A stretch of DNA of 32,000 bases from Candidatus Karelsulcia muelleri (lineage in GTDB: Bacteria > Bacteroidota > Bacteroidia > Flavobacteriales > Blattabacteriaceae): assembly GCF_022985615.1 (NCBI RefSeq), contig NZ_CP094965.1, positions 124,327 through 156,326 on the forward strand, given 5' to 3'. A program made the translations under genes and the position numbers. Numbering within the stretch: the stretch's first letter is position 1; each line of letters starts with the position of its first letter. This document shows, piece after piece, positions 7,975-31,999 of the stretch. The notes below the pieces were generated by a model. The model was not told the origin of the DNA, searched no databases, and saw only the letters and a program-made list of their open reading frames with translations.

Positions 7975-8309
7975 TGTTTAAAAACAAAAAATTAGATTTC
8001 TATTATAAATCTAATAATATTAATTATTCAAAAATTAAGCTGATAAAATTAATTAATATTATTAAGTCGAAAAATATTGAAGATATAATGAATTTATTGA
8101 TAAATTTTAAAACAAAAGGAGCAATACTTTTAAAAGAGATAATTTTGAATGCTTATAAGAATTTTAGGAGACAATCCCCCAAAAAAAATGTATATATAAA
8201 AAACATTATAATTAACAAAAGCCGAATTTTTAAAAAAATTAGGCCAACTTCACAGGGTAGAGCTAAGAAAATAAAAAAACAATTTTTTAAAATGATTTTG
8301 ATTTTTTAA
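7974..8309 (+). CDS. rplV: 50S ribosomal protein L22 (divergent)
   Basis: 111 aa. The position between rpsS and rpsC fits, and KKIRPTSQGRAKKIKK corresponds to the L22 R(A)MGRA..I.KR motif. The C-terminus and stop lie inside a 19-bp tandem duplication. Confidence 0.85.
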   Translation: MFKNKKLDFYYKSNNINYSKIKLIKLINIIKSKNIEDIMNLLINFKTKGAILLKEIILNAYKNFRRQSPKKNVYIKNIIINKSRIFKKIRPTSQGRAKKIKKQFFKMILIF

Positions 8310-8320
8310 AATGATTTTGA
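8283..8320. repeat. 19-bp perfect tandem duplication (x2) spanning the rplV stop codon
   Basis: TTTTTTAAAATGATTTTGA occurs at 8283-8301 and 8302-8320, 19/19 identical. Confidence 0.97.
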
Positions 8321-8345
8321 TACTTTACCAGGAAAAAAAGAAAAA

Positions 8346-15193: not shown

Positions 15194-16234
15194 ATGATTT
15201 CACCAGCCCAGATAAAAATCTTAACAAATTCTAAAAATAGAGGGAAATTTTTAATAAAACCTTTAAGTACTGGATTTGGAATTACTCTAGGAAATTCATT
15301 AAGGAGAGTTTTAATATCATATTTAGAAGGATATGCCATATATTATATAATGATTAATGGTGTCAAACATGAATTCTCTTATATAGATGGAGTAATAGAA
15401 AATCTAACTGAAATAATTTTAAATTTAAAACAAATACGTTTTAAATTAAAAAGTAAAATTTATAAAAAAATCCCAGAACAGTTTACAATATTTTTAACAA
15501 AAAAAAAGTCTAAAATTACTGCTGGAGATTTATGTGGATCTATTACTTGTTTTGAAGTATTGAATCCAAATTTATTAATTTTGAATAAAGAGTTAGATAC
15601 TAATTTAAAAATTACTCTCGGTATAAAAAAAGGAGTTGGATATATTCCAGTAGAAAAAAAAAAGAATAAAATAGGAAAAATACCAATTGATACTATTTTT
15701 AGTCCCATAATAAACGTAAGCTTAAAAGTAGAAACTTGTGAAGTGAATAATTGCTATGAATACGATAGTTTGATTATAGATATTCGTACTGATGGTTCAA
15801 TTACTCCAAAAAAGGCTTTAAAAAAAGCTTCTAGTATCCTAATACAACATTTTACTTTATTTTTTAATGGTAAAAAAACAGAATTAAAGCTCCCAATAAA
15901 ATATACTGATTATAAAGAAAGAATAAAATATTTATATATGCAAAAACTTTTAAATTGTTTAAAATTTGCTAAAATTAAAACTTGGGCTGACTTAGTAAAA
16001 GTTAAAAACTTAGGATTAGCTTATGATTCTGAGTCTGAGTATAATTTTGGAAATTTTGGAGGAGGAGATTATGGTCTTGATTTATCAAAATATCAAATAT
16101 CAAAATATCAAATTAAAATTTCTAATAAAAAAAAAAGAATAAAAAATTTTCGTGAAAAAATGAGAAAAATAGTAAAGCTAAGAAATGTTATTAAAAGAAG
16201 AAAAATGACCAAAAAAAATGAGACACCAAAATAA
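15194..16234 (+). CDS. rpoA: DNA-directed RNA polymerase alpha subunit, with a degenerate, repeat-bearing C-terminal tail
   Basis: 346 aa. The NTD is conserved (GKFLIKPLSTGFGITLGNSLRRVLIS.LEG.AI, IDIRTDGSITP..AL..AS.IL). Only a remnant of the alpha-CTD helix-hairpin-helix is visible (LNCLKFAKIKTWADLV), followed by a Lys-rich tail carrying four short tandem duplications. Confidence 0.9.
   Translation: MISPAQIKILTNSKNRGKFLIKPLSTGFGITLGNSLRRVLISYLEGYAIYYIMINGVKHEFSYIDGVIENLTEIILNLKQIRFKLKSKIYKKIPEQFTIFLTKKKSKITAGDLCGSITCFEVLNPNLLILNKELDTNLKITLGIKKGVGYIPVEKKKNKIGKIPIDTIFSPIINVSLKVETCEVNNCYEYDSLIIDIRTDGSITPKKALKKASSILIQHFTLFFNGKKTELKLPIKYTDYKERIKYLYMQKLLNCLKFAKIKTWADLVKVKNLGLAYDSESEYNFGNFGGGDYGLDLSKYQISKYQIKISNKKKRIKNFREKMRKIVKLRNVIKRRKMTKKNETPK
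16028..16113. repeat. cluster of four in-frame micro-duplications in the rpoA C-terminal tail
   Basis: TCTGAG x2 (16028-16039), AATTTTGGA x2 (16043-16060), GGA x3 (16058-16066) and ATCAAAATATCAAAT x2 (16084-16113). All periods are divisible by 3. Confidence 0.93.
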
Positions 16235-16568
16235 AAATAATAATTTAGGACGAAATAAGTCTCATAGAAAATCCCTATTAACTAATCTGGCTATTTCCCT
16301 AATAAAACATAAAAGAATTAAAACAACTTTAGCTAAAGCAAAATCTTTAAAAAAATTCATTGAACCAATAATAACTAGAGGTAAAAAAAAAGATACTCAT
16401 TCTATGCGAATAGTATTTAAAAAATTAAATGATAAAACTGCTGTTTTGGAACTTTTAAAAAATATATCAAAAAATAATTTAAAACGTAATGGAGGATATA
16501 CAAGAATTATTAAACTTGGCAAGAGGTTAGGAGATTTTTCAGAAATGGCAATAATGGAGCTAGTTTAA
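16218..16568 (+). CDS. rplQ: 50S ribosomal protein L17
   Basis: 116 aa. MRHQNK...LGR..SHRK.LL.NLA.SLI.H.RI.TTLAKAK.LKKF.EP.IT..K, GGYTRI.KLG.R.GD....AI.ELV matches L17. Confidence 0.93.
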   Translation: MRHQNKNNNLGRNKSHRKSLLTNLAISLIKHKRIKTTLAKAKSLKKFIEPIITRGKKKDTHSMRIVFKKLNDKTAVLELLKNISKNNLKRNGGYTRIIKLGKRLGDFSEMAIMELV

Positions 16569-17470
16569 TGAAATATTTTCATATACCAGTTTTATTATCG
16601 GAAGTTCTAGAAAACCTTATTAAGGATATTAATGGTATCTATATAGATACTACTTTTGGTAGTGGTGGACATTCTTTTGGGATATTAAAGAAAATAAGTA
16701 ATCAAGGTAAATTATTTGCTTTTGATCAAGATCAATTTGCAATTATTAAAAATAAAATTTGTGATAAAAGAATAAGATTTTTTAACGAGAACTTTCGAAA
16801 TATACAAAAAATATTAAAAGCTTATAAAAACAACATTCTAAAGAATGTATCAGGAATAATAGCCGATTTAGGAGTTTCCTCGTATCAAATAGATACACCA
16901 CAACGAGGGTTTTCAATAAGATTTAATAAAATTTTGGATATGAGAATGGATTTATCAAAACAAAAGTCGGCTTTAAATATAATAAAAAATTATTCTTTTG
17001 AAAAATTAAATAAGATTTTTAATAAATATGGGGAGTTTAAAAATCCGCAAAGAATATCTAGAAAAATTGTTTTAAACAGTAAATTTATTAACACTACTTT
17101 GGATTTAGTAAATCTATTCAAAAGAAATAATAACAGGAAATTTTTATCTAGATTATTCCAAGCTTTAAGAATAGAGGTAAATGATGAAATAAATGCGTTA
17201 AAGAAATTACTTAAACAATCAATAAATATTTTAAAACCGGGAGGTAGATTAGCTATTATTTCCTATCATTCATTAGAAGATAGGTTAGTTAAAAACTTCT
17301 TTAAAAGTGGAAATATACAGGGGATTATTAAATATGATAAGAAAGGTAAGAATTTATCTCCATTTAATAAAAAATATACTAAAAGAATTTTTCCAACAAA
17401 AGAAGAAATCACTAAAAATAATAGAGCTAGAAGTGCTATATTAAGAATTACACAAAAAAAAGTATGTTGA
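16568..17470 (+). CDS. rsmH: 16S rRNA (cytosine1402-N4)-methyltransferase
   Basis: 300 aa. HIPVLL.EV...L, DTTFGSGGHS, DLGVSSYQID...RGFS, LDMRM, ISYHSLEDRLVKNFF and RARSA.LR are MraW/RsmH motifs. The last 11 nt (including the TGA stop) lie inside copy 1 of the duplicated rnpB 5' segment. Confidence 0.92.
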   Translation: MKYFHIPVLLSEVLENLIKDINGIYIDTTFGSGGHSFGILKKISNQGKLFAFDQDQFAIIKNKICDKRIRFFNENFRNIQKILKAYKNNILKNVSGIIADLGVSSYQIDTPQRGFSIRFNKILDMRMDLSKQKSALNIIKNYSFEKLNKIFNKYGEFKNPQRISRKIVLNSKFINTTLDLVNLFKRNNNRKFLSRLFQALRIEVNDEINALKKLLKQSINILKPGGRLAIISYHSLEDRLVKNFFKSGNIQGIIKYDKKGKNLSPFNKKYTKRIFPTKEEITKNNRARSAILRITQKKVC

Positions 17471-17577
17471 TTTATCGCATTGTTTGTTTTTAAACAAACA
17501 ATGAGGAAAGTAAAGTATGTTAAGTATAAGTATAAGTATAAGTATAAGTATAAGTATGTTGATTTATCGCATTGTTT
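17460..17577. repeat. duplicated rnpB 5' domain (52-bp copy, 9-bp and 26-bp partial copies) with an (AAGTAT)n hexanucleotide microsatellite
   Basis: 17460-17511 is 52/52 identical to 17578-17629 (the rnpB 5' end through GAGGAAAGT). AAGTATGTT is at 17513-17521, AAGTAT x5 at 17522-17551, and a partial copy AAGTATGTTGATTTATCGCATTGTTT at 17552-17577. Confidence 0.95.
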
Positions 17578-17899
17578 AAGTATGTTGATTTATCGCATTG
17601 TTTGTTTTTAAACAAACAATGAGGAAAGTCTGGAATCACTAGGGATAACGCAACGGGTAACTCCCGTACATCGTGAGATGAGGAATAGTGCAACAGAAAG
17701 TATGTACAGTTGAGCTGTAGTGAAATCATGTAAACTCTGTGTTGTGAAATGCCAAATATACCAGAAGTATAGTAGTATAGTTCATCCCTAACTAAATATC
17801 TGCTAACTAAATATCTGGGGGGTAGGCAGATCGAGATAAAGGGTAACTTTTATCCTAGATAAATGATAAATTAAACTGAATCCGGCTTATAACATACTT
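17578..17899 (+). ncRNA. rnpB: RNase P RNA (bacterial type A, reduced)
   Basis: The 5' AAGTATGTT pairs with the 3' AACATACTT (P1). A perfect P3-like hairpin is present (CATTGTTTGTT-TTTAA-AACAAACAATG). Universal elements are present: GAGGAAAGTCTGG (P4 5' strand), AGTGCAACAGAAAGTATGTACAG, GGGGTAGGCAGATCGAG, and CCTAGATAAATGA...ACTGAATCCGGCTTAT (P4 3' strand). The 5' boundary is ambiguous because that segment is duplicated upstream. Confidence 0.85.
17766..17817. repeat. two perfect tandem duplications inside rnpB (8 bp x2 and 15 bp x2)
   Basis: AGTATAGT x2 at 17766-17781; CTAACTAAATATCTG x2 at 17788-17817. Confidence 0.95.
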
Positions 17900-17903
17900 T
17901 TTT

Positions 17904-19580
17904 TTAAAAATATTTCTCTATATTATTTATATCTAATAAGAATAAGATTTTTTGTTTGAATTTTAATAAATTATCAATTTTTAATATTTGTTTTATTAGC
18001 TTCCTTATTGTTAAGGAAGCAATCTTTTGTTTTGTTTCTAATTTATAAAAATTATATATATTTTTATATATTAATTTTTCAATGATTTTATCATCTTGGT
18101 AAATATAAAGATCATATAATAACCTATATACATATATTTTTTTTAAAAACTTAGGAGAATAAGTAATTGAAATAGAATTTTCAAAACATTTTATTTTAAA
18201 ACCAAAATTAATTAAAATTTCTATAATTTTGGTTTTAGTTTTTTTAGTAAAAAATTTATTCAATTTAATATTTATCGGTGGGTATAATTTATAGATTTTG
18301 TGTTTTTTTATTTCTTTTTTAAACTTATCCTCTAAAATTATTTTATAGACTCTATCTTTATGAATAATTAAAACACCAAAATCTAAAAGACATAATATAT
18401 ATTTTTTATAGATCTTAAATTGGGTAAAATCCAGATCTATTTTCTTAAGATCTATTTTCTTAAGAAATATTTTATTAAGAAATATTTTCTTAAGAAATAT
18501 TTTATTAAGAAATTCTTGACAATTATTATTTAGGTTGCGGTTTTTTTCTTCTTTATCTTTTTTTTTAGAGTAAAACTTAAAAATATTCTGTAGGCCTAAA
18601 TATTCTTTAATTATTATATTTATATTTTTACAAATTTCTGACTCTGATTTAATGAGTATTTTGTTTTTGGATTGACAAATATTAATTTCAATTTGTTTGG
18701 TTGGAATAGTAAGAAATAAAAAATAATTTGGTTTATTAGTTTTGTTTATTAGACCGTTATAGGCTTTAATAATAGACTTGTGAATTCTTTTGTTTACTAC
18801 GTATCTATTATTAACAAACAAATAATAATTCTTAAATTGAGTATTAAAAAAACTTGTAGAAGTGATATATCCTTTTATAAGAAATAATTTATCTTTTTTA
18901 AAAACTTTGATTAAGACATTTTTATAATATTCGCCAAAAATTTTAATTATTCTATATTTTAGATTTGATTTTTTTAAACTGGTAATTATCTTATTATTAT
19001 GCATCATAACAAAATTAATATCAGGGTGTGAAAGAACTATCTTATTAAATTCTGATATGATATATCTTAATTCAATATGGGCAGATTTTAAAAAGTTTTT
19101 TCTATTGGGGAAATTGTAAAATAAGTTTTTCACATATATACTAGTACCATTTAATAAATTATTTAATAATACAGGGGGATATTTAAGCTTTTGATTTTCT
19201 AATGTTAAGAAGACTCCAAATTCTGATTTGGTTTTTTTAGTGTATATTTCTACCTGGCTAACTAAAGAAATATAGTATAAAGCTTCACCTCGAAAGCCTT
19301 TAGTATTTAGTGATTTGATATCTTTAAGAGAATATAATTTGGAAGTATAAAATCTCCTAATACTATTTTTCGCTTCTAAATGATTCATTCCATCACCATC
19401 ATCTATAACATTAATTAAATCTTTCCCACCATTCAATAATATCAATTTAATATTTTTTGAATGTGCATCAATTGAGTTTTCTAATAATTCTTTTACTACA
19501 GAAGCTGGTCTTTTAATTACATATCCTGCTGAAATTTTATTTGAATCTTGTGTGGGTAGAATTTTTATGGTATTTTTCAT
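17904..19580 (-). CDS. mutL: DNA mismatch repair protein MutL (ATPase domain conserved, C-terminal domain highly divergent)
   Basis: 558 aa. The N-terminal GHKL ATPase motifs are ISAGYVIKRPASVVKELLENSIDA, VIDDGDGM and GFRGEALYYISLVS. An in-frame 15-bp repeat lies in the linker. The CTD aligns only loosely. Confidence 0.88.
   Translation of the reverse strand: MKNTIKILPTQDSNKISAGYVIKRPASVVKELLENSIDAHSKNIKLILLNGGKDLINVIDDGDGMNHLEAKNSIRRFYTSKLYSLKDIKSLNTKGFRGEALYYISLVSQVEIYTKKTKSEFGVFLTLENQKLKYPPVLLNNLLNGTSIYVKNLFYNFPNRKNFLKSAHIELRYIISEFNKIVLSHPDINFVMMHNNKIITSLKKSNLKYRIIKIFGEYYKNVLIKVFKKDKLFLIKGYITSTSFFNTQFKNYYLFVNNRYVVNKRIHKSIIKAYNGLINKTNKPNYFLFLTIPTKQIEINICQSKNKILIKSESEICKNINIIIKEYLGLQNIFKFYSKKKDKEEKNRNLNNNCQEFLNKIFLKKIFLNKIFLKKIDLKKIDLDFTQFKIYKKYILCLLDFGVLIIHKDRVYKIILEDKFKKEIKKHKIYKLYPPINIKLNKFFTKKTKTKIIEILINFGFKIKCFENSISITYSPKFLKKIYVYRLLYDLYIYQDDKIIEKLIYKNIYNFYKLETKQKIASLTIRKLIKQILKIDNLLKFKQKILFLLDINNIEKYF
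18433..18510. repeat. 15-bp in-frame tandem repeat (~5 copies) in the mutL linker
   Basis: AGATCTATTTTCTTA x2, then AGAAATATTTTATTA / AGAAATATTTTCTTA / AGAAATATTTTATTA. On the minus strand this encodes FLNKI-FLKKI-FLNKI-FLKKI-DLKKI-DL. Confidence 0.95.
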
Positions 19581-19606: not shown

Positions 19607-21088
19607 TTAAGATTTTAAACGCATTTGTGGAAAAAATAAGACCTCCTGAATATTTCTTTGATTAGTAAATAACATGATTAAACGATCAATCCCAAAGCCT
19701 ATACCACTACAAGGAGGCATACCATATTCTAATGAAAGAATAAAGTCTTTATCTATTAACATATTTTCAGATTCAACTTTATTATATAATTTAATTTGTC
19801 TTTTAAATCTCTTGAATTGATCAATTGGATCATTTAATTCTGAATAAGAATTCGCTATTTCAACACCATTAATTATTAATTCATATCTTTCAGATAAACC
19901 ATTTTTAAAGCGATGTTTTTTAGCTAATGGACTCATTTCAAGGGGAAAATCAATTATAAAAGTTGGTTGAATAATTTTTTTTTCACATTTTTGACTGAAT
20001 ATTTGATCGAGAAGTTGTCCTTTTTTCATCTTATTATCAATCTTCACATTTATTTCCTTACATATTTTTCTAATTTCAGTTTCAATAAGATTACTTAGGT
20101 CAAATCCAGTATAAATTTTAATAGCTTCAAAAAAAGTAATTTTTTTAAAGGGTGAAATCAAATGAAGAGATTGTTTGCCTACTTTGGCAAATTTTAAACA
20201 AATTTTTTGTAAAAACTTTTCAGTAAATTTCATCATCCAATAATAATCTTTATAGGCTACATATAATTCTAGAATTGTAAATTCTGGATTATGATTTTTA
20301 TCTATCCCCTCGTTTCTAAAATTTCTAGAAAATTCATAAACTTTTTCTAAACCTCCAACTAGTAATTTTTTTAAATATAATTCATTGGAAATTCTTAAAT
20401 AGAATGTACTTTTTAAGGTATTATGATATGTAATAAATGGTCTGGCAATAGCACCACCCGGAATGGCTTGTAAAATAGGAGTTTCAACTTCTAAATAATT
20501 TCTTTTATTTAAATAATTTCTTATAAAACTTATAATTTTAATACGTGTAAAAAATACAGTTTTAATTTCGTCATTAACGATCAAATCAACATATTTCATT
20601 CTATGTCGTTTTTCATTATTAGAAAAAGAATCAAAAGTATTTCCCGATTTATCTTTTTTTACGTTTGGTAAAGTATGTAGACATTTAGATAATAAATTTA
20701 TTTTTTTTGCATATACAGAAATTTGGTTATTTTTAGTTTTGAATAAATAACCTTTCAACCATATTATATCTCCGATATCTAAAAGTTTTTTTAAAAACAA
20801 ATTGTATATATTTTTGCCAGTATAAAAATTATTTATGGATATATAAATTTGTATCAAACCTTCTTTATCTTTTATTTCAATAAAAGAAGCCTTTCCCATT
20901 ATTCTAATTCTAATAATTCTACCAGCAACAATAACCTTTTTATTTTTTTTGTAATTATTAATTATTTTTTTTGAATTAGAATTTATTGGATATTCTTCAG
21001 AAGGATAAGGATTAATATTTATTTTGTTTAATTTTTTAAGCTTTTTTATTCTAATCAAATTTTGGTCATAAATACGCAAATTTCTCAT
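19607..21088 (-). CDS. lysS: lysyl-tRNA synthetase, class II
   Basis: 493 aa. It has an OB anticodon-binding domain (GRIIRIRIMGKASFIEIKD..G.IQIY), class II motifs (LEVETPILQ..PGGA.ARPF.T.HN; FRNEGID..HNPEFT.LE.Y; GIGFGIDRLIMLFT) and the LysS-typical RHRMKYVDLI. Confidence 0.95.
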   Translation of the reverse strand: MRNLRIYDQNLIRIKKLKKLNKININPYPSEEYPINSNSKKIINNYKKNKKVIVAGRIIRIRIMGKASFIEIKDKEGLIQIYISINNFYTGKNIYNLFLKKLLDIGDIIWLKGYLFKTKNNQISVYAKKINLLSKCLHTLPNVKKDKSGNTFDSFSNNEKRHRMKYVDLIVNDEIKTVFFTRIKIISFIRNYLNKRNYLEVETPILQAIPGGAIARPFITYHNTLKSTFYLRISNELYLKKLLVGGLEKVYEFSRNFRNEGIDKNHNPEFTILELYVAYKDYYWMMKFTEKFLQKICLKFAKVGKQSLHLISPFKKITFFEAIKIYTGFDLSNLIETEIRKICKEINVKIDNKMKKGQLLDQIFSQKCEKKIIQPTFIIDFPLEMSPLAKKHRFKNGLSERYELIINGVEIANSYSELNDPIDQFKRFKRQIKLYNKVESENMLIDKDFILSLEYGMPPCSGIGFGIDRLIMLFTNQRNIQEVLFFPQMRLKS

Positions 21089-21095
21089 TAAAAGA

Positions 21096-21127
21096 ATATT
21101 AAGACCTTGAAATATTAAGACCTTGAA
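21096..21127. repeat. 16-bp perfect tandem duplication (x2) copying the 3' acceptor end of tRNA-Arg plus its trailer
   Basis: ATATTAAGACCTTGAA occurs at 21096-21111 and 21112-21127. The second copy overlaps tRNA positions 21118-21127. Confidence 0.96.
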
Positions 21128-21191
21128 GGGAGTTGAACCCTTACTCTTCTGATCCGTAGTCAGATGCTTTATCCAATTAAGCTACAAGGCC
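21118..21191 (-). tRNA. tRNA-Arg (anticodon ACG)
   Basis: Hand-folded minus-strand sequence: GGCCTTG-TA-GCTT-AATTGGATA-AAGC-A-TCTGA-CTACGGA-TCAGA-AGAGT-AAGGG-TTCAACT-CCCTT-CAAGGTC-T. All four stems pair (one G-U in the acceptor), the T-loop is TTCAACT, the anticodon loop is CT-ACG-GA, and no CCA is encoded. Confidence 0.9.
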
Positions 21192-24736: not shown

Positions 24737-25641
24737 TTATAGGAGGTGGTCCAGCAGGATATACGGCAGCCATTTATTTAGCTCGTGCAGAAATAAAACA
24801 CCTTCTTTTTACAGGCTTTAAACCAGGTGGACAATTGATATCAACTAATAAAATAGAAAATTATCCTGGTTTTCCTGATGGGATATCTGGTTACAAATTA
24901 ATGGAATCTTTTAAAGCCCAAAGCGAAAACTTCGGGACTAAGGTAAAAGATAATAGTGTAGTAAAAATTAATTTTAATATAATAAAAAATTGGCATGAAA
25001 TTATCTTAGATAATTCTTTAAAAATAAAAACCAAAACACTAATTATAGCGACTGGAGCTTCTCCTAGATATTTAAATATTGAGAATGAAAAAAAATTAAT
25101 TGGAAAGGGTATTTATACATGTGCAAATTGTGATGGCTTTTTTTTTAAAGGGAAAAAAGTAGCAGTAATTGGTGGAGGGGATAAAGCAGCAGAAGAATCT
25201 ATTTATTTAGCTAATATTTGTAAAAAAGTATATCTAATAATAAGAGATAAAAAAATGAAAGCTTCAAAAATTATGCAAAAAAAAGTTTTAAACATTAAAA
25301 ATGTTGAAATATTTTATTATCATAAAGTTATAAAAATAATTGGAGAAAAAAAAATAAAAGCGATTTTTTGTAAAAACAGAAAAAATAATAATAATTACTT
25401 ATTTAAGGTGGCAGCTCTTTTTTTAGCTATTGGGCAAATTCCAAATAGTCTTATTTGTAAACCAAATCTAAAATTAGATAAATCTGGATATATAATTACA
25501 AAATATACAATTACTAATATTCCTGGAATATTTGCAGCAGGAGATGTGCAAGACACAAGATATCGACAAGCAATCACCTCAGCTGGATCTGGTTGTATGT
25601 CTGCAATAGAGGTAGAAAAATACCTTATTAAAGTTCAATAA
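24700..25641 (+). CDS. trxB: thioredoxin-disulfide reductase
   Basis: 313 aa. It has the FAD motif IIIGGGPAGYTAAIYLAR, the redox-active CANCDG (CxxC), the NADPH motif VIGGGD.A.EE and the C-terminal GIFAAGDVQD..YRQAITSAGSGCM.A. Confidence 0.94.
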   Translation: MSNREREIFDCIIIGGGPAGYTAAIYLARAEIKHLLFTGFKPGGQLISTNKIENYPGFPDGISGYKLMESFKAQSENFGTKVKDNSVVKINFNIIKNWHEIILDNSLKIKTKTLIIATGASPRYLNIENEKKLIGKGIYTCANCDGFFFKGKKVAVIGGGDKAAEESIYLANICKKVYLIIRDKKMKASKIMQKKVLNIKNVEIFYYHKVIKIIGEKKIKAIFCKNRKNNNNYLFKVAALFLAIGQIPNSLICKPNLKLDKSGYIITKYTITNIPGIFAAGDVQDTRYRQAITSAGSGCMSAIEVEKYLIKVQ

Positions 25642-25664
25642 CCAACCTTATTAAAGTTCAATAA
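25622..25664. repeat. 23-bp-period tandem duplication spanning the trxB stop codon
   Basis: ACCTTATTAAAGTTCAATAA occurs at 25622-25641 (ending with the trxB TAA) and again at 25645-25664, 20/20 identical. Confidence 0.95.
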
Positions 25665-25669
25665 AGAAT

Positions 25670-25722
25670 ATAAAAGAAAAAATAAAAGAAAAAATAAATA
25701 TTAGATACTTTATTAGATACTT
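25670..25722. repeat. two adjacent 12-bp tandem duplications
   Basis: ATAAAAGAAAAA x2 at 25670-25693; TATTAGATACTT x2 at 25699-25722. Confidence 0.9.
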
Positions 25723-25750
25723 AGAAGTTTTCTTTTCTTATCATGGATTA

Positions 25751-25849
25751 AGTACAAACAAACAAACATAACAAAGTACAAATAAACAAACAAACATAAC
25801 ATAACATAACATAAGTAAGTAAGTACAAACAAGTAAGTAAAGTACAAAC
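25751..25849. repeat. compound microsatellite block
   Basis: AGTACAAAC-type words recur 4 times. (ACAA)n runs are present, with CATAA x4 at 25795-25814 and GTAA x2.75 at 25815-25825. Confidence 0.85.
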
Positions 25850-25921
25850 ATTATTTACATTTTTAATTCTTTTATTATTTACATTTTTAATTCTTTTATT
25901 ATTTACATTTTTAATTCTTTT
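25850..25921. repeat. 24-bp perfect tandem repeat x3
   Basis: ATTATTTACATTTTTAATTCTTTT occurs at 25850-25873, 25874-25897 and 25898-25921, all identical. Confidence 0.96.
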
Positions 25922-25934
25922 TTCTTTTACAAAT

Positions 25935-26145
25935 AGCAGTTAGCTGCTAATCAGCAGTTAGCTGCTTATCAGCAGTTAGCAGCAGTTAGTTAGCAGCAGT
26001 TAGCTGCTAATCAGCAGTTAGCAGCAGTTAGTTAGCAGCAGTTAGCTGCTAATCAGCAGTTAGTTAGCAATCGTTAGCTAATGCTAATCAATCAATCAGC
26101 AAGCAGTTTGCTAATCAATCAATCAGTTAGTTAGCTAATGCTAAG
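25935..26145. repeat. GC-enriched modular palindromic repeat array (higher-order 42-bp unit)
   Basis: The modules are A=AGCAGTTAGCTGCTAATC (18), B=AGCAGTTAGC (10) and C=AGCAGTTAGTTAGC (14). They occur in the order A-A'-B-C-A-B-C-A-C (25935-26068). A degenerate tail (26069-26145) has GCTAATCAATCAATCAG x2 and TTAGCTAATGCTAA x2. The modules are built from the inverted words TTAGC/GCTAA and AGCAG/CTGCT. Confidence 0.93.
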
Positions 26146-26262
26146 TTTTAATAAGTATTTCTTAAAAAAGATATTTATTATTTTATTATTTATTACTTTT
26201 ATATTAAAAAAAGTTTTTTAGCGATTATTAATAAATTGTTGTAAACTAGGATCTTTATTAGG

Positions 26263-26322
26263 ACTTACTTACTTGTGTTTACAGTAACTTGTTTTTACAG
26301 TAACTTACTTGTGTTTACAGTA
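26263..26322. repeat. 16-bp tandem repeat x3 with ACTT micro-expansions
   Basis: ACTTGTGTTTACAGTA (26271-26286), ACTTGTTTTTACAGTA (26287-26302) and ACTTGTGTTTACAGTA (26307-26322), flanked by extra ACTT units. Confidence 0.9.
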
Positions 26323-27617: not shown

Positions 27618-27806
27618 TTATTTAATGCTTTATTTATATTATATAGAATATAATAATAGAATATATAATATAATATAATATAATTAATTATCTAATTAAT
27701 TAGATATTATATATAATATTAAGAGAATATAATATAATATTATCTTATCTAAGATTCTAGAATATAGAATAAAATAATCTAATTACTTTGATAGATACTA
27801 TAATGC

Positions 27807-28267
27807 ATAGCATTATTGACAATAATAAATAAATAATAGCATTTATTATTTATTATTATGAGGATTGATTATTTATGATATGATAATAAATAATAAATAA
27901 TAGCATTTATTATTTATTAGGATGAGGATTGATTATATGATAATAACTAATAAATAATAGCATTTATTATTTATTAGGATGAGGATGAGAATAAATAATA
28001 GCATTTATTACAAGAATAAATAGCATTTATTATTTATTAGGATGATATGATAATAAATAATAGCATTTATTACAAGAAATAATAAATAGCATTTATTTAT
28101 TATAATTAATTATGAATTTAATATTATTATTATGATTAATTATATTATTATTATTATTATTAATTATTAATTATGATATTTATGATATGATTTACAATAC
28201 AATACAATAATAAATAAATAGCATTAATTATGATATTTAGGATTTACAATAATAAATAGCATTTATT
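27807..28267. repeat. array of ~10 copies of an AATAAATA(AT)AGCATTTATT-type unit running from the ilvC upstream region into the 3' end of ilvN
   Basis: The core ATAGCATT starts at about 27807, 27836, 27900, 27957, 27998, 28020, 28060, 28086, 28218 and 28256. The first three long units (~57-64 bp) also share TTAGGATGAGGATTGATTAT. The last copy encodes the INAIYY C-terminus of ilvN. Confidence 0.9.
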
Positions 28268-28473
28268 CCTATAATTTTAAATAATCGTATAATTATTTTT
28301 AAGATGTTTTCTACTACACATTCAATCTCTAGTATACAGAAAACTTTATCGTCTTTTTTAAAAGATATATTTTTTTTTATTTCTAAATTAATTTTATTAA
28401 AAATCATAACTATTCTCTGATTAAAATCAGAAGTATTTTCTGAAAAAATATATAAACTTATTTTTTTTTTCAT
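28237..28473 (-). CDS. ilvN: acetolactate synthase small (regulatory) subunit, reduced to a single ACT-like domain
   Basis: 78 aa. The position immediately downstream of ilvB (6-nt gap) fits. ISLYIFSENTSDFNQRIVMIFNKINLEI resembles the ACT-domain start (L.+.VEN..GVL.R+.GLF.RR.+NI.S+). It is far shorter than typical IlvH. Its last codons lie in a repeat copy. Confidence 0.55.
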   Translation of the reverse strand: MKKKISLYIFSENTSDFNQRIVMIFNKINLEIKKNISFKKDDKVFCILEIECVVENILKIIIRLFKIIGINAIYYCKS

Positions 28474-28479
28474 TTTTTC

Positions 28480-30159
28480 TTAAAAACATATTTTTGATAC
28501 TGATTTTTCAGTCGGTATCATTGGTAGGGTATTATACTCTTTTTCGACTAAAATTTCTATTAAAAAAACCTCTTTAGATTTTAACATTTTCTTTATATTT
28601 TCTTTTAATTTTTCTTTAACAAATACTTTTTTACTTTTTATGTTATATGCTTTTGAAAGGTTAGTAAAATTTGGATTATATATTTTAGTATTAGAAAATC
28701 TTCTATTAAAGAATAAATCTTGCCATTGTTTTACCATTCCTAAAAAATTATTATTAAGAATTATAATTTTGATAGGTATTTCATATTGCATTATTGTCCC
28801 AAGTTCTTGAATAGTCATTTGAAACCCCCCATCTCCTACTATACATATTACTTGACGTCTTTTAGCACCTATCTTGGCACCAATAGCAGCTGGTAAAGCA
28901 AATCCCATTGTACCTAAACCTCCTGATGTTATTTGACTTTTCAGAGTAGTAAAATTAAAATATCTTGAGGCAGACATTTGATGTTGACCTACATCAGTTA
29001 CTAATATACAATTAGTTTTTTTATATAAATTTATATAATTTATTACTTCTGGCATAGTAATCCCTATTTTGTTTTTTATAAATTCTTTTTCTTTTACATA
29101 TTTCCTTTCTACTTTCTTTAATAAGTTAAAGGTTTTTACCCATTTTTCTGTGCTATTGGTTTTAAAGTTTTTAATTAAATAATTTAAATTATGTTTTAAA
29201 TTTCCTAGTAAATAAATAGTAGGTTTTAGTCTTTTGTTAATTTCGTAATTATCTATATCTATATGTATGATTAGAGTTTTTGGGGAAATTGTTTTTATAT
29301 TTCCTATAAGTCTATCATCAAAACGTAAACCTATTGCAATTATTAAATCAGATTTTAAAATTAAAATATTATTTTGGTAATTTCCATGCATTCCTAACAT
29401 ACCATAGTTCAAATTATGGTTGGTCTTTAAAATTCCCATACCTAATAAAGTACTAGCTACTGGTATGTTGGTCTTTTCTGCAAATTGTTTTAATTGATTT
29501 TCTGCATTTGCTAGTTTTACTCCTTGTCCAATTATTATTATTGGTTTACGGGCTTTTTTAATTGTTTTAATTACCTTTTGTAATTCTTTTTTATTAATTT
29601 TATTTTGTGTTTTTAGATTTGTTTTGGTTTTGGGTGGAAATATTATTACTTGGTTTAGTTGTTGAACCTGGGTATTTTTTGTTATATCTATTAATATAGG
29701 ACCTGGTCTACCATTTGTGGCTAGGTTTAAACCTTTAGATATTACTTCGAATATTTGATCTGGTTTAGTTATTTGAAAATTCCATTTTGTCACTGGTATT
29801 GATATGTCTATTATATCTATTTCTTGAAAGGCATCTGTTCCTAATAAATTTGAAGAAACTTGACCAGTTATACATAATAATGGAGTACTATCAATTAGAG
29901 CATCGGCTAAACCAGTAATTAGATTACTGGATCCGGGACCTGATGTAGATAAACAAATACCTGGTTTTCCAGTTACTCTAGCATACCCTTGGGCTGCATG
30001 AATTGATCCTTGTTCATGACGAGTTAATATGTGTTTTATTTGTTTTTTGTAAGTGAACAAGGAATCATATATTGGCATTACTGCACCACCTGGATAACCA
30101 AAAATAAATTTTACCTTATTATAAATTAAAGTTTTAACTATAATTTCAGCCCCTGTCAT
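28480..30159 (-). CDS. ilvB: acetolactate synthase, large (catalytic) subunit
   Basis: 559 aa. GAEIIVKTL......FGYPGGAVMPIYD, TRHEQGSIHAAQGYARVTGKPG.CL.TSGPG..NL.TG.ADA..DS.PL, and the ThDP motif GDGGFQM..QEL.T......P.KI..LNN..LGMV.QWQ match ALS. Confidence 0.95.
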   Translation of the reverse strand: MTGAEIIVKTLIYNKVKFIFGYPGGAVMPIYDSLFTYKKQIKHILTRHEQGSIHAAQGYARVTGKPGICLSTSGPGSSNLITGLADALIDSTPLLCITGQVSSNLLGTDAFQEIDIIDISIPVTKWNFQITKPDQIFEVISKGLNLATNGRPGPILIDITKNTQVQQLNQVIIFPPKTKTNLKTQNKINKKELQKVIKTIKKARKPIIIIGQGVKLANAENQLKQFAEKTNIPVASTLLGMGILKTNHNLNYGMLGMHGNYQNNILILKSDLIIAIGLRFDDRLIGNIKTISPKTLIIHIDIDNYEINKRLKPTIYLLGNLKHNLNYLIKNFKTNSTEKWVKTFNLLKKVERKYVKEKEFIKNKIGITMPEVINYINLYKKTNCILVTDVGQHQMSASRYFNFTTLKSQITSGGLGTMGFALPAAIGAKIGAKRRQVICIVGDGGFQMTIQELGTIMQYEIPIKIIILNNNFLGMVKQWQDLFFNRRFSNTKIYNPNFTNLSKAYNIKSKKVFVKEKLKENIKKMLKSKEVFLIEILVEKEYNTLPMIPTEKSVSKICF

Positions 30160-31999
30160 TTATATTCTCTGTAATACACCCTTCAGAAGCTGAGTCATTT
30201 ATATTCTCTGTAATACACCCTTCAGAAGCTGAGTCATTTATATTCTCTGTAATACACCCTTCAGAAGCTGAGTCATTTATATTCTCTGTAATACACCCTT
30301 CAGAAGCTGAGTCATTTATATTCTCTGTAATACACCCTTCAGAAGCTGAAGATACTAATTTGGAATATTTAGATAAATAGCCTGAATTTGAATTATTCTT
30401 TGGTCTTTTATATTCTTTTTTTCTATTTAGTAAATCTTTTTTGGAGATTTTTAATGTTATTCGATTTTTTATAGCATCTATCTTTATTATATCTTTTTCT
30501 TGTATTAGTGCAATTACTCCACCAATTTGTGCTTCGGGTGTTATATGACCAACTACAAAACCATGAGTTCCACCTGAGAATCTGCCATCGGTTATTAAAG
30601 CAACTTTATTTCCTAATCCGGCTCCCATAATATATGAAGTAGGTTTTAACATTTCAGGCATTCCTGGACTTCCTTTGGGTCCAACATATCTGATTACTAT
30701 AACATCTCCAGATTTAATCTTATTATTTAATATTGCCTTATTGGCTTCTATTTCGGAATCAAATACTTTAGCTCTTCCAGAAAAGCAATGTCCTTCTTTT
30801 CCTGAAATTTTAGCTACGGCTCCTTTAGGTGCAATATTACCGTATAATATACGAATATGTCCTTTATTTTGTATTGGTTTGTATAATGTTGAAATTACTT
30901 TTTGATTCGAAAAAGATATATTGGGTATACCTTCTAAATTTTCTTTTATTTTTTTTCCTGTCACAGTTAAGCACTCACCATTTAGTAAGCCTTCATTTAG
31001 CAAGTATTTCATTATAATAGGAGTCCCTCCAATTGTTTCTATATCTTCCATTAAATACTTACCACTCGGTTTAAGATTCCCTATTATTGGAACATTTTCA
31101 GTAAGCTCTTTTATATTATCAATATTAAATTTGATTTTGGCTGTTTTACATATTGCTAATATATGTAATACTAAGTTAGTTGAACCGCCTAAAGCAATAG
31201 CAACTGTAATTGCATTTTTTATGGAATTTTTAGTAATTATTTTTTTAGTATTTATATTTTTTTTTAATAATTCTTTCATATAATAACCTATTTTCTTACA
31301 TTCATATTTTTTATTTATATTATTAGCTAAACAAGAAGAAGAAAAAGGTAATGTCATTCCTAAGGCTTCTAAGCTTGTGGCAACTGTGTTAGCTGTATAC
31401 ATTCCACCACAAGCTCCAGGACCTGGACAAGCATTTTTTATTATGTTTTGGTATTCTGAATTTGAGATTTGGCCTATATTTTTTTGGCCTAATGCCTCAA
31501 ATGCTGAGACAATATTTAATTTTTTTCCTTGGTATTTTCCTGATTCTATGCTACCACCATAAATTATTATTGCTGGTCTTTCTGTTCTTATTATACCCAT
31601 CAACACTCCTGGTATATTCTTATCGCAGCCTGGTATTCCAATTATACCATCATAATGTTGAGCTTTTACTACACTTTCTATACTATCTGCTATTATCTCT
31701 CTAGATGGCAAAGAATATTTCATACCTTCTGTACCCATTGTCATTCCATCACTTACTCCAATTGTATTAAACTGAAATCCAATCATATTATTTTTATTTA
31801 TTGATTTTTTTGCTTCTTTAGATAAAAGATTAAGATGCATATTACATGGGTTCCCCTCATACCAATTGCTTACTACTCCTATTTGTGGTTTATATAAATC
31901 TTTTGCTTTGATTCCTGTGGCATATAACATAGCCCTGTAAGCTGGTAATTCATCACTCTTGATTAAATGAGAACTATAGGTAGTATTTATTATAGCCAC
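30146..31999 (-). CDS. ilvD: dihydroxy-acid dehydratase with a 5x tandem 13-aa C-terminal repeat; the start lies at or beyond the window edge
   Basis: 617-aa ORF. GNPCNMHL, VSDGMTMGTEGMKYSLPSREIIADSIE, GIPGCDKN.PG, CPGPGACGGMYTANT, LITDGRFSGGTHGFVVGHI.PEA and SSASEGCIT are IlvD/Edd signatures. The GTG at 31997-31999 may or may not be the true start. The C-terminus carries SASEGCITENIND x5. Confidence 0.95.
   Translation of the reverse strand: MAIINTTYSSHLIKSDELPAYRAMLYATGIKAKDLYKPQIGVVSNWYEGNPCNMHLNLLSKEAKKSINKNNMIGFQFNTIGVSDGMTMGTEGMKYSLPSREIIADSIESVVKAQHYDGIIGIPGCDKNIPGVLMGIIRTERPAIIIYGGSIESGKYQGKKLNIVSAFEALGQKNIGQISNSEYQNIIKNACPGPGACGGMYTANTVATSLEALGMTLPFSSSCLANNINKKYECKKIGYYMKELLKKNINTKKIITKNSIKNAITVAIALGGSTNLVLHILAICKTAKIKFNIDNIKELTENVPIIGNLKPSGKYLMEDIETIGGTPIIMKYLLNEGLLNGECLTVTGKKIKENLEGIPNISFSNQKVISTLYKPIQNKGHIRILYGNIAPKGAVAKISGKEGHCFSGRAKVFDSEIEANKAILNNKIKSGDVIVIRYVGPKGSPGMPEMLKPTSYIMGAGLGNKVALITDGRFSGGTHGFVVGHITPEAQIGGVIALIQEKDIIKIDAIKNRITLKISKKDLLNRKKEYKRPKNNSNSGYLSKYSKLVSSASEGCITENINDSASEGCITENINDSASEGCITENINDSASEGCITENINDSASEGCITENINDRG
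30156..30350. repeat. 39-bp tandem repeat x5 across the ilvD 3' end / ilvB start overlap
   Basis: TCATTTATATTCTCTGTAATACACCCTTCAGAAGCTGAG occurs at 30156, 30195, 30234, 30273 and 30312. Four copies are identical, and the fifth differs only at its last base (30350). Confidence 0.97.

What the first reader, a model, noticed from the sequence alone, without database searches (positions are those of the whole stretch)
17460..17629. The 5' domain of RNase P RNA is duplicated and the upstream copy supplies the rsmH stop codon
A 52-bp segment is present twice with 52/52 identity, at 17460-17511 and 17578-17629. It carries the P1 5' strand, a perfect P3-like hairpin and the universally conserved GAGGAAAGT of P4. 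Between the two copies lie a 9-nt start of the unit, a pure (AAGTAT)x5 microsatellite derived from the first 6 nt of the unit, and a 26-bp partial copy. The final rsmH codons (..AAA GTA TGT TGA) lie within copy 1. The ancestral state was therefore probably an rsmH/rnpB overlap that was later duplicated. Three alternative 5' strands can now pair with the single P1 3' strand (AACATACTT, 17891-17899). That raises the question of which 5' end is used, and whether decoy leaders are removed from the precursor or interfere with folding.
Basis: partly seen in the sequence, partly recalled or inferred. Interest (0 to 1): 0.7.

Follow-up and report, generated by a model that had tools for sequence, protein, structure and literature searches.

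The report
Duplicated RNase P RNA start in Sulcia
In a tiny insect-symbiont genome, replication slippage has copied the first 52 bases of the RNase P RNA gene, so one copy now ends the neighbouring rsmH gene and the other starts the working RNA; this is a real but fairly ordinary product of a genome-wide habit of duplicating tight gene junctions.

Summary
A 52-nt unit occurs twice at 100% identity (17460-17511 and 17578-17629). Between the copies lie one A, a 9-nt unit start, (AAGTAT)x5 and a 26-nt partial copy.

- **Source.** The window is Ca. Karelsulcia (Sulcia) muelleri from a Pyrops planthopper.
- **Working gene.** Rfam places a full-length class-A rnpB at 17577-17904, using the downstream copy U2. 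rsmH ends GTA TGT TGA inside the upstream copy U1.
- **History.** Single-copy relatives show the same rsmH/rnpB overlap, so the overlap came first.
- **Not an artefact.** Two other Pyrops Sulcia genomes carry the duplication with only two AAGTAT units and no 26-nt piece.
- **Not special.** Over 21 kb the three genomes differ by 0.2-0.7% substitutions but by 32 indel blocks, nearly all tandem copy-number changes. The rplV/rpsC, tRNA-Arg/lysS and ilvD/ilvB junctions are duplicated in the same way.

Best reading: nested slippage duplications that are tolerated because each gene keeps one intact end.

- There are four AAGTATGTT copies, not three.
- U1 carries only half of the P4 strand.

One new point: only U1 can rebuild the ancestral 16-bp P1, while U2 gives 10 bp. 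Which 5' end is used therefore remains open.

The parts
16568..17470 (+). rsmH (16S rRNA m4C1402 methyltransferase), 300 aa. Its last 11 nt, including the TGA stop at 17468-17470, lie inside repeat copy U1.
   Evidence: ORF. TIGR00006 match at 286 bits covering profile positions 5-310 of 310. Translation. Identical to P0001, annotated RsmH of Ca. Karelsulcia muelleri.
17454..17459 (+). A-run made of rsmH Lys codons. With the first two A of U1 it forms A8, which pairs with the U8 run after the P1 3' strand. This extension of P1 is available only to U1.
   Evidence: Inverted repeat I6: 17454-17468 against 17891-17905, 15 nt, 100% complementary. A 16-bp contiguous helix. Compensatory changes in relatives support the first few pairs of the extension, out to -5.
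17460..17511 (+). U1, the upstream copy of the rnpB 5' unit. It holds the P1 5' strand, the P2 5' strand, a P3-like hairpin, J3/4 and the first half of the P4 5' strand. It supplies the rsmH stop. It is probably leader or spacer, or possibly a P1 donor.
   Evidence: No Rfam match on its own. Its P4-like duplex is only -3.3 kcal/mol.
17512..17521 (+). Junction A plus a 9-nt copy of the unit start (AAGTATGTT). The A fits a 53-nt tandem duplication of A+U.
   Evidence: The same junction is present in L081 and L082.
17522..17551 (+). (AAGTAT)x5 microsatellite. It has only 2 units in the two sister genomes.
   Evidence: TRF period 6 at 100%. Part of a 44-nt block found only in the window, against L096 and L097.
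17552..17577 (+). 26-nt partial copy holding the P1 5' strand, the P2 5' strand and the start of P3, in tandem with the start of U2. It is specific to this genome.
   Evidence: TRF period 26 x 2.0 at 100%. Absent from L081 and L082.
17578..17629 (+). U2, the downstream copy. It is continuous with the rest of rnpB and is followed by CUGG (17630-17633), which completes the P4 5' strand.
   Evidence: cmscan alignment. P4 duplex -8.5 kcal/mol.
17577..17904 (+). rnpB, bacterial class-A RNase P RNA, as placed by the covariance model.
   Evidence: RF00010, 165.1 bits against a gathering score of 100, E 9.6e-52, model positions 1-367 of 367, not truncated.
17788..17817 (+). A second tandem duplication specific to this strain, 15 nt x 2 (CTAACTAAATATCTG), inside the mature RNA in the variable P15-P17 region.
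   Evidence: Single copy in L096 and L097. Falls in an insertion relative to the Rfam model.
17865..17872 (+). P2 3' strand (GAUAAAUU). Its partner GAUUUAUC occurs three times, in U1, the 26-nt partial and U2.
17882..17888 (+). P4 3' strand (CCGGCUU). It pairs with AAG[U]CUGG at 17626-17633.
   Evidence: Sequence. Duplex calculation. The P4 architecture is taken from established knowledge of E. coli M1 RNA.
17890..17905 (+). The single P1 3' strand (UAACAUACUU) plus the U-run. It abuts the mutL stop codon at 17904-17906 on the - strand.
17904..19580 (-). mutL, converging on rnpB with no spacer.
   Evidence: ORF. TIGR00585 match at 323 bits.

Best explanation
The array is a set of nested tandem duplications made by replication slippage at a junction where rsmH and rnpB originally overlapped.

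**History**
- In the ancestor, as in today's single-copy relatives, the last codons of rsmH (..AAA GTA TGT TGA) were also the P1/P2 5' strand of the RNase P RNA.
- In the common ancestor of the three Pyrops-planthopper Sulcia genomes, a 53-nt segment (A plus the 52-nt unit) was duplicated head to tail.
- Later slippage added a 9-nt copy and AAGTAT units.
- In this strain alone, three more AAGTAT units and a 26-nt copy were added.

**Why it survives**
The duplication is tolerated because it spans a boundary shared by two genes. The upstream copy keeps rsmH's last codons and stop. The downstream copy is continuous with the rest of the gene and gives a complete class-A RNase P RNA. The overlap is thereby turned into two separate gene ends.

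**What each copy does**
The catalytic core must use the downstream copy, because only U2 is followed by the CUGG half of the P4 strand. The rest of U1 and the 66 nt between the copies are most likely non-functional leader or spacer.

**Shown and inferred**
- Shown: the repeat anatomy, the covariance-model placement, the ancestral overlap, the presence of the duplication and its length differences in sister genomes, the genome-wide excess of tandem indels, and the parallel junction duplications.
- Inferred: slippage as the mechanism, near-neutrality, co-transcription of rnpB with rsmH, and removal or harmlessness of the leader.
For: 1. Rfam RF00010 aligns full length from 17577 at 165 bits. It also picks the proximal copy in the sister genomes L081 and L082 at 165-168 bits, within the 161-182 bit range of single-copy relatives.
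2. Single-copy relatives have rsmH ending inside or directly against the rnpB 5' end: L001, L095, L083, L093, L092.
3. L081 (CP094963) and L082 (CP094964) carry U1 + A + AAGTATGTT + (AAGTAT)x2 + U2. In L081, U2 differs from U1 by one G>T. These assemblies were built from short and long reads (PMC10333215).
4. The carriers form one clade with 99.5% bootstrap support. They are 1-2% diverged from L083 (single copy) and L091, so 52/52 identity is expected from recency alone.
5. Over about 20.7 kb the three genomes differ by 0.19-0.72% substitutions but by 32 indel blocks, nearly all tandem copy-number changes of 5-64-nt units. TRF lists many perfect arrays in the window.
6. The same process acts at other tight junctions:
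   - rplV/rpsC, 19 nt x 2. The genes overlap by 16 nt in L096, which lacks the duplication, and are 36 nt apart where it is present.
   - tRNA-Arg 3' end/lysS, 16 nt x 2.
   - ilvD/ilvB, 39 nt x 5. Each unit carries the ilvB ATG.
7. P4 duplex is -8.5 kcal/mol with U2 and -3.3 with U1.
8. No promoter-like or terminator-like signal above chance, and no Bacteroidota TAnnTTTG motif in 17250-17640.
Against: - No RNA data are available, so the mature 5' end is unknown.
- In a nested-structure model the canonical U2 is the weakest P1 partner: -8.4 kcal/mol, against -14.1 for U1 with the A-run. On a read-through transcript the P1 3' strand pairs with U1 with probability 0.98.
- The proximal copy leaves a 10-bp P1. 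That is shorter than the 11-16 bp found in the five single-copy relatives where P1 could be measured cleanly (L083, L001, L095, L093, L002). The canonical fold may therefore be handicapped, and the leader may not be harmless.
- The 44-nt block specific to the window rests on one assembly only.
- Slippage is inferred from the head-to-tail pattern. It has not been observed.
Confidence: 0.75

Rival explanations
1. The upstream copy is part of the functional RNA. The mature RNase P RNA begins in the A-run at about 17454 and closes P1 with U1 as the ancestral 16-bp helix. P2, P3 and P4 come from U2. The roughly 118 nt in between are kept as a peripheral insertion between P1 and P2, or between P2 and P3.
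For: - Only U1 can form the 16-bp P1.
- The first pairs of the P1 extension beyond the 9-bp core are supported by compensatory changes in relatives: C-G at -2 in L001 and L095, and U-A at -4 in L093 and L002.
- Duplex energy is -14.1 against -8.4 kcal/mol. P1 pairs with U1 with probability 0.98. Forced folds give -112.8 (P1 from U1, P2 from U2) and -114.8 (both from U1), against -102.5 for the canonical U2 fold.
- The 3' U8 run is retained in all three carriers. It is lost in L091, where neither copy can use it.
Against: - The covariance model gives a complete, normal-scoring alignment with U2 alone.
- The folding model has no pseudoknots, no tertiary contacts and no co-transcriptional kinetics, and it favours the outermost copy for generic reasons.
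- The insertion varies in length between sister strains, 74 nt extra against 118 nt. That fits a sequence carried along without function.
- The carriers diverged too recently for retention of U8 to mean anything.
- The pairing of the A-run with the U-run beyond position -5 has no covariation support.
Confidence: 0.13
2. The duplication is adaptive. It was selected because it uncouples two functions that conflicted in the overlap. If rnpB is cut out of an rsmH read-through transcript, cleavage at the rnpB 5' end leaves an rsmH mRNA without a stop codon. After the duplication, one transcript can give both a complete rsmH mRNA and an RNase P RNA, and the two sequences can evolve independently.
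For: - The overlap is resolved: the stop is in U1 and the RNA start is in U2.
- No promoter signal was found for rnpB, which fits co-transcription.
- The junction has been altered repeatedly in planthopper Sulcia: the mini-duplication in L091, a 60-nt spacer in L002 and an extended rsmH in L094.
- The rplV/rpsC duplication also turns an overlap into a gap.
Against: - Most planthopper Sulcia keep the overlap, apparently without harm.
- Tandem duplications are just as common in non-coding DNA and inside genes of these genomes, so the mutational supply alone explains the pattern.
- The later additions of microsatellite units and the 26-nt copy add nothing to uncoupling.
- There is no expression data.
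Confidence: 0.08
3. The repeat is an assembly or polishing artefact, and the real genome has one copy.
For: - Perfect 52/52 identity.
- Tandem structure that short reads resolve poorly.
- The window-specific 44-nt block is seen in one assembly only.
Against: - The U1/U2 duplication is present in three separately assembled genomes from three host species, built from short and long reads.
- One of them has a point difference between the copies (L081), and microsatellite length differs between strains.
- Eight independent Logan assemblies of a related lineage agree with one another on a single copy, so the method does not create the repeat in general.
Confidence: 0.03

Closest known systems
Bacterial class-A RNase P RNA (Rfam RF00010, rnpB)
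   Same: The downstream copy plus 17630-17904 is an ordinary, if AT-rich and reduced, class-A RNase P RNA. It has P1-P4, GAGGAAAGUC and a P4 with a bulged U.
   Different: A 118-nt segment in front of the gene repeats its first 52 nt, along with shorter pieces of the same unit. It provides three extra P1 5' strands, two extra P2 5' strands and a second P3 hairpin. The proximal P1 is cut to 10 bp.
[quoted passage not shown]
   Same: Short tandem repeats of variable length associated with an RNase P RNA gene and tolerated by the ribozyme. The 15-nt x 2 repeat at 17788-17817, inside the mature RNA, is the closer analogue.
   Different: The STRR are heptamers from a genome-wide repeat family, inserted in a peripheral helix of the mature RNA. 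Here the repeated unit is the gene's own 5' domain, lies upstream of the working copy, and overlaps a protein gene's stop codon.
Tandem-repeat-driven genome instability in the whitefly endosymbiont Portiera (Sloan & Moran 2013, PMC3673631, found)
   Same: An obligate insect endosymbiont with a tiny genome in which tandem repeats and indels, not substitutions, dominate recent change. Here there are 32 indel blocks against 39-149 substitutions in 21 kb.
   Different: A different phylum and host. The cause proposed for Portiera is loss of dnaQ (as cited in PMC10333215); this was not examined here. The duplications here cluster at gene boundaries in a genome that is still compact.
Resolution of overlapping genes by tandem duplication (a general evolutionary concept; my own knowledge, no specific family)
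   Same: A duplication that spans a shared segment gives each gene its own copy. Here this applies to rsmH/rnpB and, in the same window, to rplV/rpsC.
   Different: One partner is a structured RNA whose 5' strand must pair with a single 3' strand. The spare copies therefore remain potential competitors.

Membership tests
Bacterial class-A RNase P RNA (RF00010) | Full-length covariance-model match above the curated gathering score | tested here: met
   165.1 bits against 100, model positions 1-367 of 367, window 17577-17904 on the + strand.
Bacterial class-A RNase P RNA (RF00010) | P4 long-range helix with conserved GAGGAAAGUC and a bulged U, pairing with CCGGCUU near the 3' end | tested here: met
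   AAG[U]CUGG at 17626-17633 pairs with CCGGCUU at 17882-17888, duplex -8.5 kcal/mol. Met for U2 only; U1 gives -3.3.
Bacterial class-A RNase P RNA (RF00010) | Terminal P1 helix that closes the 5' and 3' ends | tested here: met
   10 bp with U2 and 16 bp with U1. Covarying pairs in relatives.
Bacterial class-A RNase P RNA (RF00010) | Catalytic processing of pre-tRNA 5' leaders | not testable with these tools
   Needs biochemistry.
RsmH (TIGR00006) | End-to-end match to the equivalog model above its cut-off | tested here: met
   286.1 bits against 154.3. Residues 3-298 of 300 cover profile positions 5-310 of 310.
Slippage-type tandem duplication / microsatellite | Head-to-tail copies with no spacer, and copy number that differs between close strains | tested here: met
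   TRF at 100% identity for periods 6 and 26. (AAGTAT) has 5 units here and 2 in L081 and L082; the 26-nt unit is doubled here only.
Slippage-type tandem duplication / microsatellite | Length heterogeneity within a population or in reads | not testable with these tools
   No read data are available.
Cyanobacterial STRR-in-rnpB | Heptanucleotide STRR family repeats inserted in a peripheral helix of the mature RNA | tested here: not met
   The repeat is a hexamer taken from the gene's own first 6 nt and lies upstream of the covariance-model start. This is an analogy only.

The most novel reading that the evidence does not exclude
In Pyrops Sulcia the RNase P RNA is made as a longer molecule. The ancestral 16-bp P1 is closed by the upstream copy, and the duplicated 5' domain stays inside the RNA as a natural insertion of about 118 nt. 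Alternatively, the four competing P1 5' strands set up alternative folds that limit how much active ribozyme is made. Either way, this would be a natural experiment on how much disruption of its 5' domain a minimal-genome ribozyme can tolerate.
Probability: 0.13. Interest if true: 0.6.

Novelty: new variant of a known kind. Interest (0 to 1): 0.4.

Why it matters
RNase P RNA is essential and present in one copy, and this genome has only about 156 kb. A recent partial duplication that differs in length between strains places decoy strands in front of such a gene. That offers a natural test of how ribozyme folding copes with competing 5' strands, and of how overlapping genes come apart. The wider finding may matter more. 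In these Sulcia genomes, tandem duplications rival point substitutions in number between the closest pair of genomes, and they sit repeatedly on tight gene junctions (rsmH/rnpB, rplV/rpsC, tRNA-Arg/lysS, ilvD/ilvB). The genome papers I searched do not mention tandem repeats. This bears on how genomes described as stable and shrinking still generate new sequence.

Tried and rejected
- **OPOL2 spacer as a decayed older copy.** I tested whether the 60-nt rsmH-rnpB spacer of OPOL2 (L002) is a decayed copy of the rnpB 5' end. The local alignment score was 17, against a shuffle mean of 19.3 and a genomic control mean of 17.4. Rejected.
- **TGA as a sense codon.** If TGA were read as an amino acid (codes 4 or 25), RsmH would run through the array as ...VC-x-FIALFVFKQTMRKVKYVKYKYKYKYKYKYV.... 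Rejected: all long genes are intact under table 11, and TGA ends 3 of 37 ORFs.
- **U1 as an independent RNA element.** No Rfam family matched 17380-17577 with an E-value below 2.
- **A new promoter or terminator created by the repeats.** Sigma-70-like hits are at chance level (7 found against 6.8 expected). There are no terminator-like sites and no Bacteroidota TAnnTTTG motif in 17250-17640.
- **Independent assemblies of this exact strain.** The exact RsmH sequence (= P0001) has no contig on record, so independent assemblies of this strain could not be examined.
- **Origin of the L091 mini-duplication.** I could not settle whether it is a deletion remnant of the 53-nt duplication or a separate event. 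It shares the AAAGT-AAAGTATGTT junction. However, the tree is an unresolved trichotomy (52% against 47% bootstrap). Also, the longer P3 shared by both copies in the Pyrops clade fits duplication after the split.
- **Literature.** The two planthopper-symbiont genome papers I searched mention neither rnpB nor tandem repeats.
Full report
**1. The observation.**
- A 52-nt unit, AAGTATGTTGATTTATCGCATTGTTTGTTTTTAAACAAACAATGAGGAAAGT, lies at 17460-17511 (U1) and at 17578-17629 (U2). The two copies are 100% identical.
- Between them lie one A (17512), AAGTATGTT (17513-17521), five pure AAGTAT units (17522-17551) and a 26-nt partial copy (17552-17577).
- Tandem Repeats Finder reports period 6 x 6.2 copies and period 26 x 2.0 copies, both at 100%.
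- AAGTATGTT occurs four times on the + strand, against 0.44 matches expected by chance. Its reverse complement occurs once, at 17891-17899.

**2. What the surrounding genes are.**
- Rfam finds one class-A RNase P RNA at 17577-17904 on the + strand. It scores 165.1 bits and covers the whole model, so the alignment starts with U2.
- The ORF 16568-17470 is RsmH, matching TIGR00006 end to end. Its last codons AAA GTA TGT TGA are the first 11 nt of U1.
- mutL converges from the other strand, and its stop codon touches the rnpB 3' end.
- TGA is a real stop in this genome.

**3. Whose genome this is.**
- RsmH relatives identify Candidatus Karelsulcia (Sulcia) muelleri of planthoppers.
- The window's RsmH is identical to P0001, from a 156,326-bp genome.
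- With CP094963 (156,700 bp) and CP094964 (155,888 bp), the sizes match the three Pyrops Sulcia genomes of Deng et al. 2023. Those were assembled from short and long reads (PMC10333215).
- That paper mentions neither rnpB nor tandem repeats. The 2026 survey of planthopper symbionts does not mention them either.

**4. History of the junction.**
- Single-copy relatives have rsmH ending inside or directly against the rnpB 5' end. DICMUL and L095 end ...CAG TAT GTT GA. L083 ends ...AAG TAT GTT GA, and eight independent Logan assemblies agree on this. L093 and L092 use a TAA or TAG in the first bases of P1.
- The two sister genomes L081 and L082 carry U1 + A + AAGTATGTT + (AAGTAT)x2 + U2, without the 26-nt piece. 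In L081, U2 has one G>T change.
- A neighbour-joining tree on 2.3 kb of rpoA-rplQ-rsmH groups the three carriers with 99.5% bootstrap support. They are 0.1-0.4% apart and 1-2% from L083 and L091.
- The core duplication is therefore real, shared and recent, and 52/52 identity needs no special explanation.
- The A at 17512 fits a head-to-tail duplication of a 53-nt segment, A+U.
- The window then gained three AAGTAT units and the 26-nt copy, seen as one 44-nt block.
- L091 has a related mini-duplication, AAGTATGTTGATT-AAAAGTA-AAGTATGTTGATTTATCGC. Whether it is a remnant of the 53-nt duplication or a separate event is unresolved.

**5. The locus is not special.**
- I aligned about 20.7 kb of the window with the two sister genomes. 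Substitutions run at 0.19-0.72%, but there are 32 indel blocks, nearly all tandem copy-number changes of 5-64-nt units. Many are in frame inside genes. The window holds dozens of perfect or near-perfect arrays.
- Three other tight junctions are duplicated in the same way:
  - **rplV/rpsC.** A 19-nt x 2 repeat at 8282-8321. In L096, which lacks it, L22 and S3 overlap by 16 nt. Where it is present, they are 36 nt apart.
  - **tRNA-Arg/lysS.** A 16-nt x 2 repeat at 21095-21127 copies the last 9 nt of tRNA-Arg just before lysS.
  - **ilvD/ilvB.** A 39-nt x 5 array at 30155-30349 sits on the overlap. Every unit carries the ilvB ATG. The array puts five tandem copies of SASEGCITENIND at the IlvD C-terminus, beyond the end of the family profile match.
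- rnpB itself carries a second tandem duplication specific to this strain, 15 nt x 2 at 17788-17817.
- The best reading is a mutational one. Slippage is frequent in this lineage, and duplications across a shared boundary persist because each gene keeps one intact end.

**6. Which copy works.**
- Only U2 is followed by CUGG, the second half of the P4 5' strand. The P4 duplex with CCGGCUU (17882-17888) is -8.5 kcal/mol for U2 and -3.3 for U1. The catalytic core must therefore use U2. The covariance model agrees in all three carriers, with normal scores.
- P1 is another matter. In single-copy relatives the helix runs well beyond the 9-bp core:

| Genome | Contiguous P1 |
|---|---|
| L083 | 16 bp |
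| DICMUL (L001) and L095 | 14 bp |
| L093 | 12 bp |
| OPOL2 (L002) | 11 bp |
| Carriers, using U2 | 10 bp |
| Carriers, using U1 with its A-run | 16 bp |

- Paired changes on both strands support the first pairs of the extension. There is C-G at -2 in DICMUL and L095, and U-A at -4 in L093 and OPOL2. L092 and L094 have internal mismatches and could not be measured as one contiguous helix.
- In the carriers, U2 has U at -3, which is why it reaches only 10 bp. U1 keeps the A-run of the rsmH Lys codons and can make the full 16 bp.
- Duplex energies with the P1 3' strand:

| 5' strand | Energy (kcal/mol) |
|---|---|
| U1 with A-run | -14.1 |
| 9-nt copy | -11.1 |
| 26-nt partial copy | -8.8 |
| U2 | -8.4 |

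- On a read-through transcript the P1 3' strand pairs with U1 with probability 0.98.
- Forced folds of 17454-17906 give -114.8 (P1 and P2 from U1), -112.8 (P1 from U1, P2 from U2) and -102.5 (both from U2).
- These models ignore pseudoknots, tertiary contacts and folding kinetics, so they show only that competition is plausible.
- I found no promoter-like or terminator-like signal and no Bacteroidota -7 motif near the junction. rnpB is therefore probably co-transcribed with rsmH, which is an inference.

**7. Comparison with what is known.**
- The gene is an ordinary class-A rnpB.
- The nearest precedent for repeats in rnpB is the cyanobacterial STRR case (Vioque 1997, cited in PMC7593598). That case involves a genome-wide heptamer family inside a peripheral helix, not a copy of the gene's own 5' domain.
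- The nearest precedent for the genome-wide process is Portiera (PMC3673631).

**8. Verdict.**
- The feature is a new variant of known kinds. It is a recent partial duplication of the rnpB 5' domain whose length differs between strains, and it splits an rsmH/rnpB overlap. It is one of several junction duplications produced by rampant slippage.
- Interest is moderate (0.4). The open and testable point is which 5' strand closes P1.

Noticed in passing
window 6577-27479 compared with L096 (CP094963) and L097 (CP094964): The three sister genomes differ by only 0.19-0.72% substitutions but by 32 indel blocks. Nearly all are tandem copy-number changes of 5-64-nt units, and many are in frame inside genes (rpoA near 16083, mutL near 18432). 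Between the window and L097 there are 39 substitutions against roughly 20 indel events. The genome papers I searched do not mention this.
   Followed up: partly
window 30155-30349 (- strand genes ilvD 30146-31999 and ilvB 28480-30159): A 39-nt unit is repeated 5.0 times at 100% identity on the ilvD/ilvB overlap. Each unit carries the ilvB ATG. The array puts five tandem copies of SASEGCITENIND at the IlvD C-terminus, beyond the end of the family profile match.
   Followed up: partly
window 21095-21127 (tRNA-Arg 21118-21191 on the - strand; lysS start at 21088): A 16-nt x 2 perfect tandem duplication copies the last 9 nt of tRNA-Arg (the acceptor 3' strand, UCAAGGUCU) into the gap before lysS. 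It is present in the window and L097 and absent from L096. This closely parallels the rnpB case.
   Followed up: partly
window 8282-8321 (rplV end / rpsC start): A 19-nt x 2 tandem duplication. In L096, which lacks it, L22 is 122 aa and overlaps S3 by 16 nt. In the window and L097, which have it, L22 is 111 aa and a 36-nt gap separates the genes. The duplication has resolved an overlap.
   Followed up: partly
L003 3910-4248 and L004 3362-3678, compared with window 17577-17904: In cicadomorphan Sulcia (SMEUTCHI, EHBR), rnpB lies next to rsmH on the opposite strand. The neighbours are the same (rpoA-rplQ-(dapF)-rsmH-rnpB-(P5C dehydrogenase)-mutL). rnpB alone is therefore inverted between cicadomorphan and planthopper Sulcia. 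A flip by recombination between the gene's own P1 strands, which form a 9-16-bp terminal inverted repeat, is one possible mechanism. This was not tested.
   Followed up: partly
window 17788-17817: A 15-nt x 2 perfect tandem duplication (CTAACTAAATATCTG) lies inside the mature rnpB, in the variable P15-P17 region. It is specific to this strain. L083 instead has a CTAA doubling at the same spot.
   Followed up: partly
window 17479-17504 and 17597-17622, compared with L083 2410-2431: P3 is longer in the Pyrops clade (CATTGTTTGTTT..AAACAAACAATG, -8.1 kcal/mol) than in L083 and L091 (CATTGTTT..AAACAATG, -5.7). The difference is an AAAC insertion on the 3' strand plus a matching T>G on the 5' strand. 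In L081, U2 has T at that position.
   Followed up: partly
L091 2403-2425 and 2700-2715: The 97% relative (CM132443) has a mini-duplication of the P1 strand. It has also lost the six-T run after the P1 3' strand (AACATACTT|AAAAATA), which leaves a 10-bp P1 for either copy.
   Followed up: partly
L094 2400-2450; L092-L095 downstream of rnpB: In L094, rsmH is extended to 311 aa and ends in a GACAT x3 repeat before a short spacer. In L092-L095, no mutL gene was called downstream of rnpB, unlike in the window clade.
   Followed up: no
window 25640-26320 and 27630-28270: Two non-coding stretches consist almost entirely of tandem arrays with periods of 4, 10, 12, 14, 18, 24, 42 and 62-64 nt. They hold the densest cluster of indel differences between the sister genomes. 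Their origin and any function are unknown.
   Followed up: no
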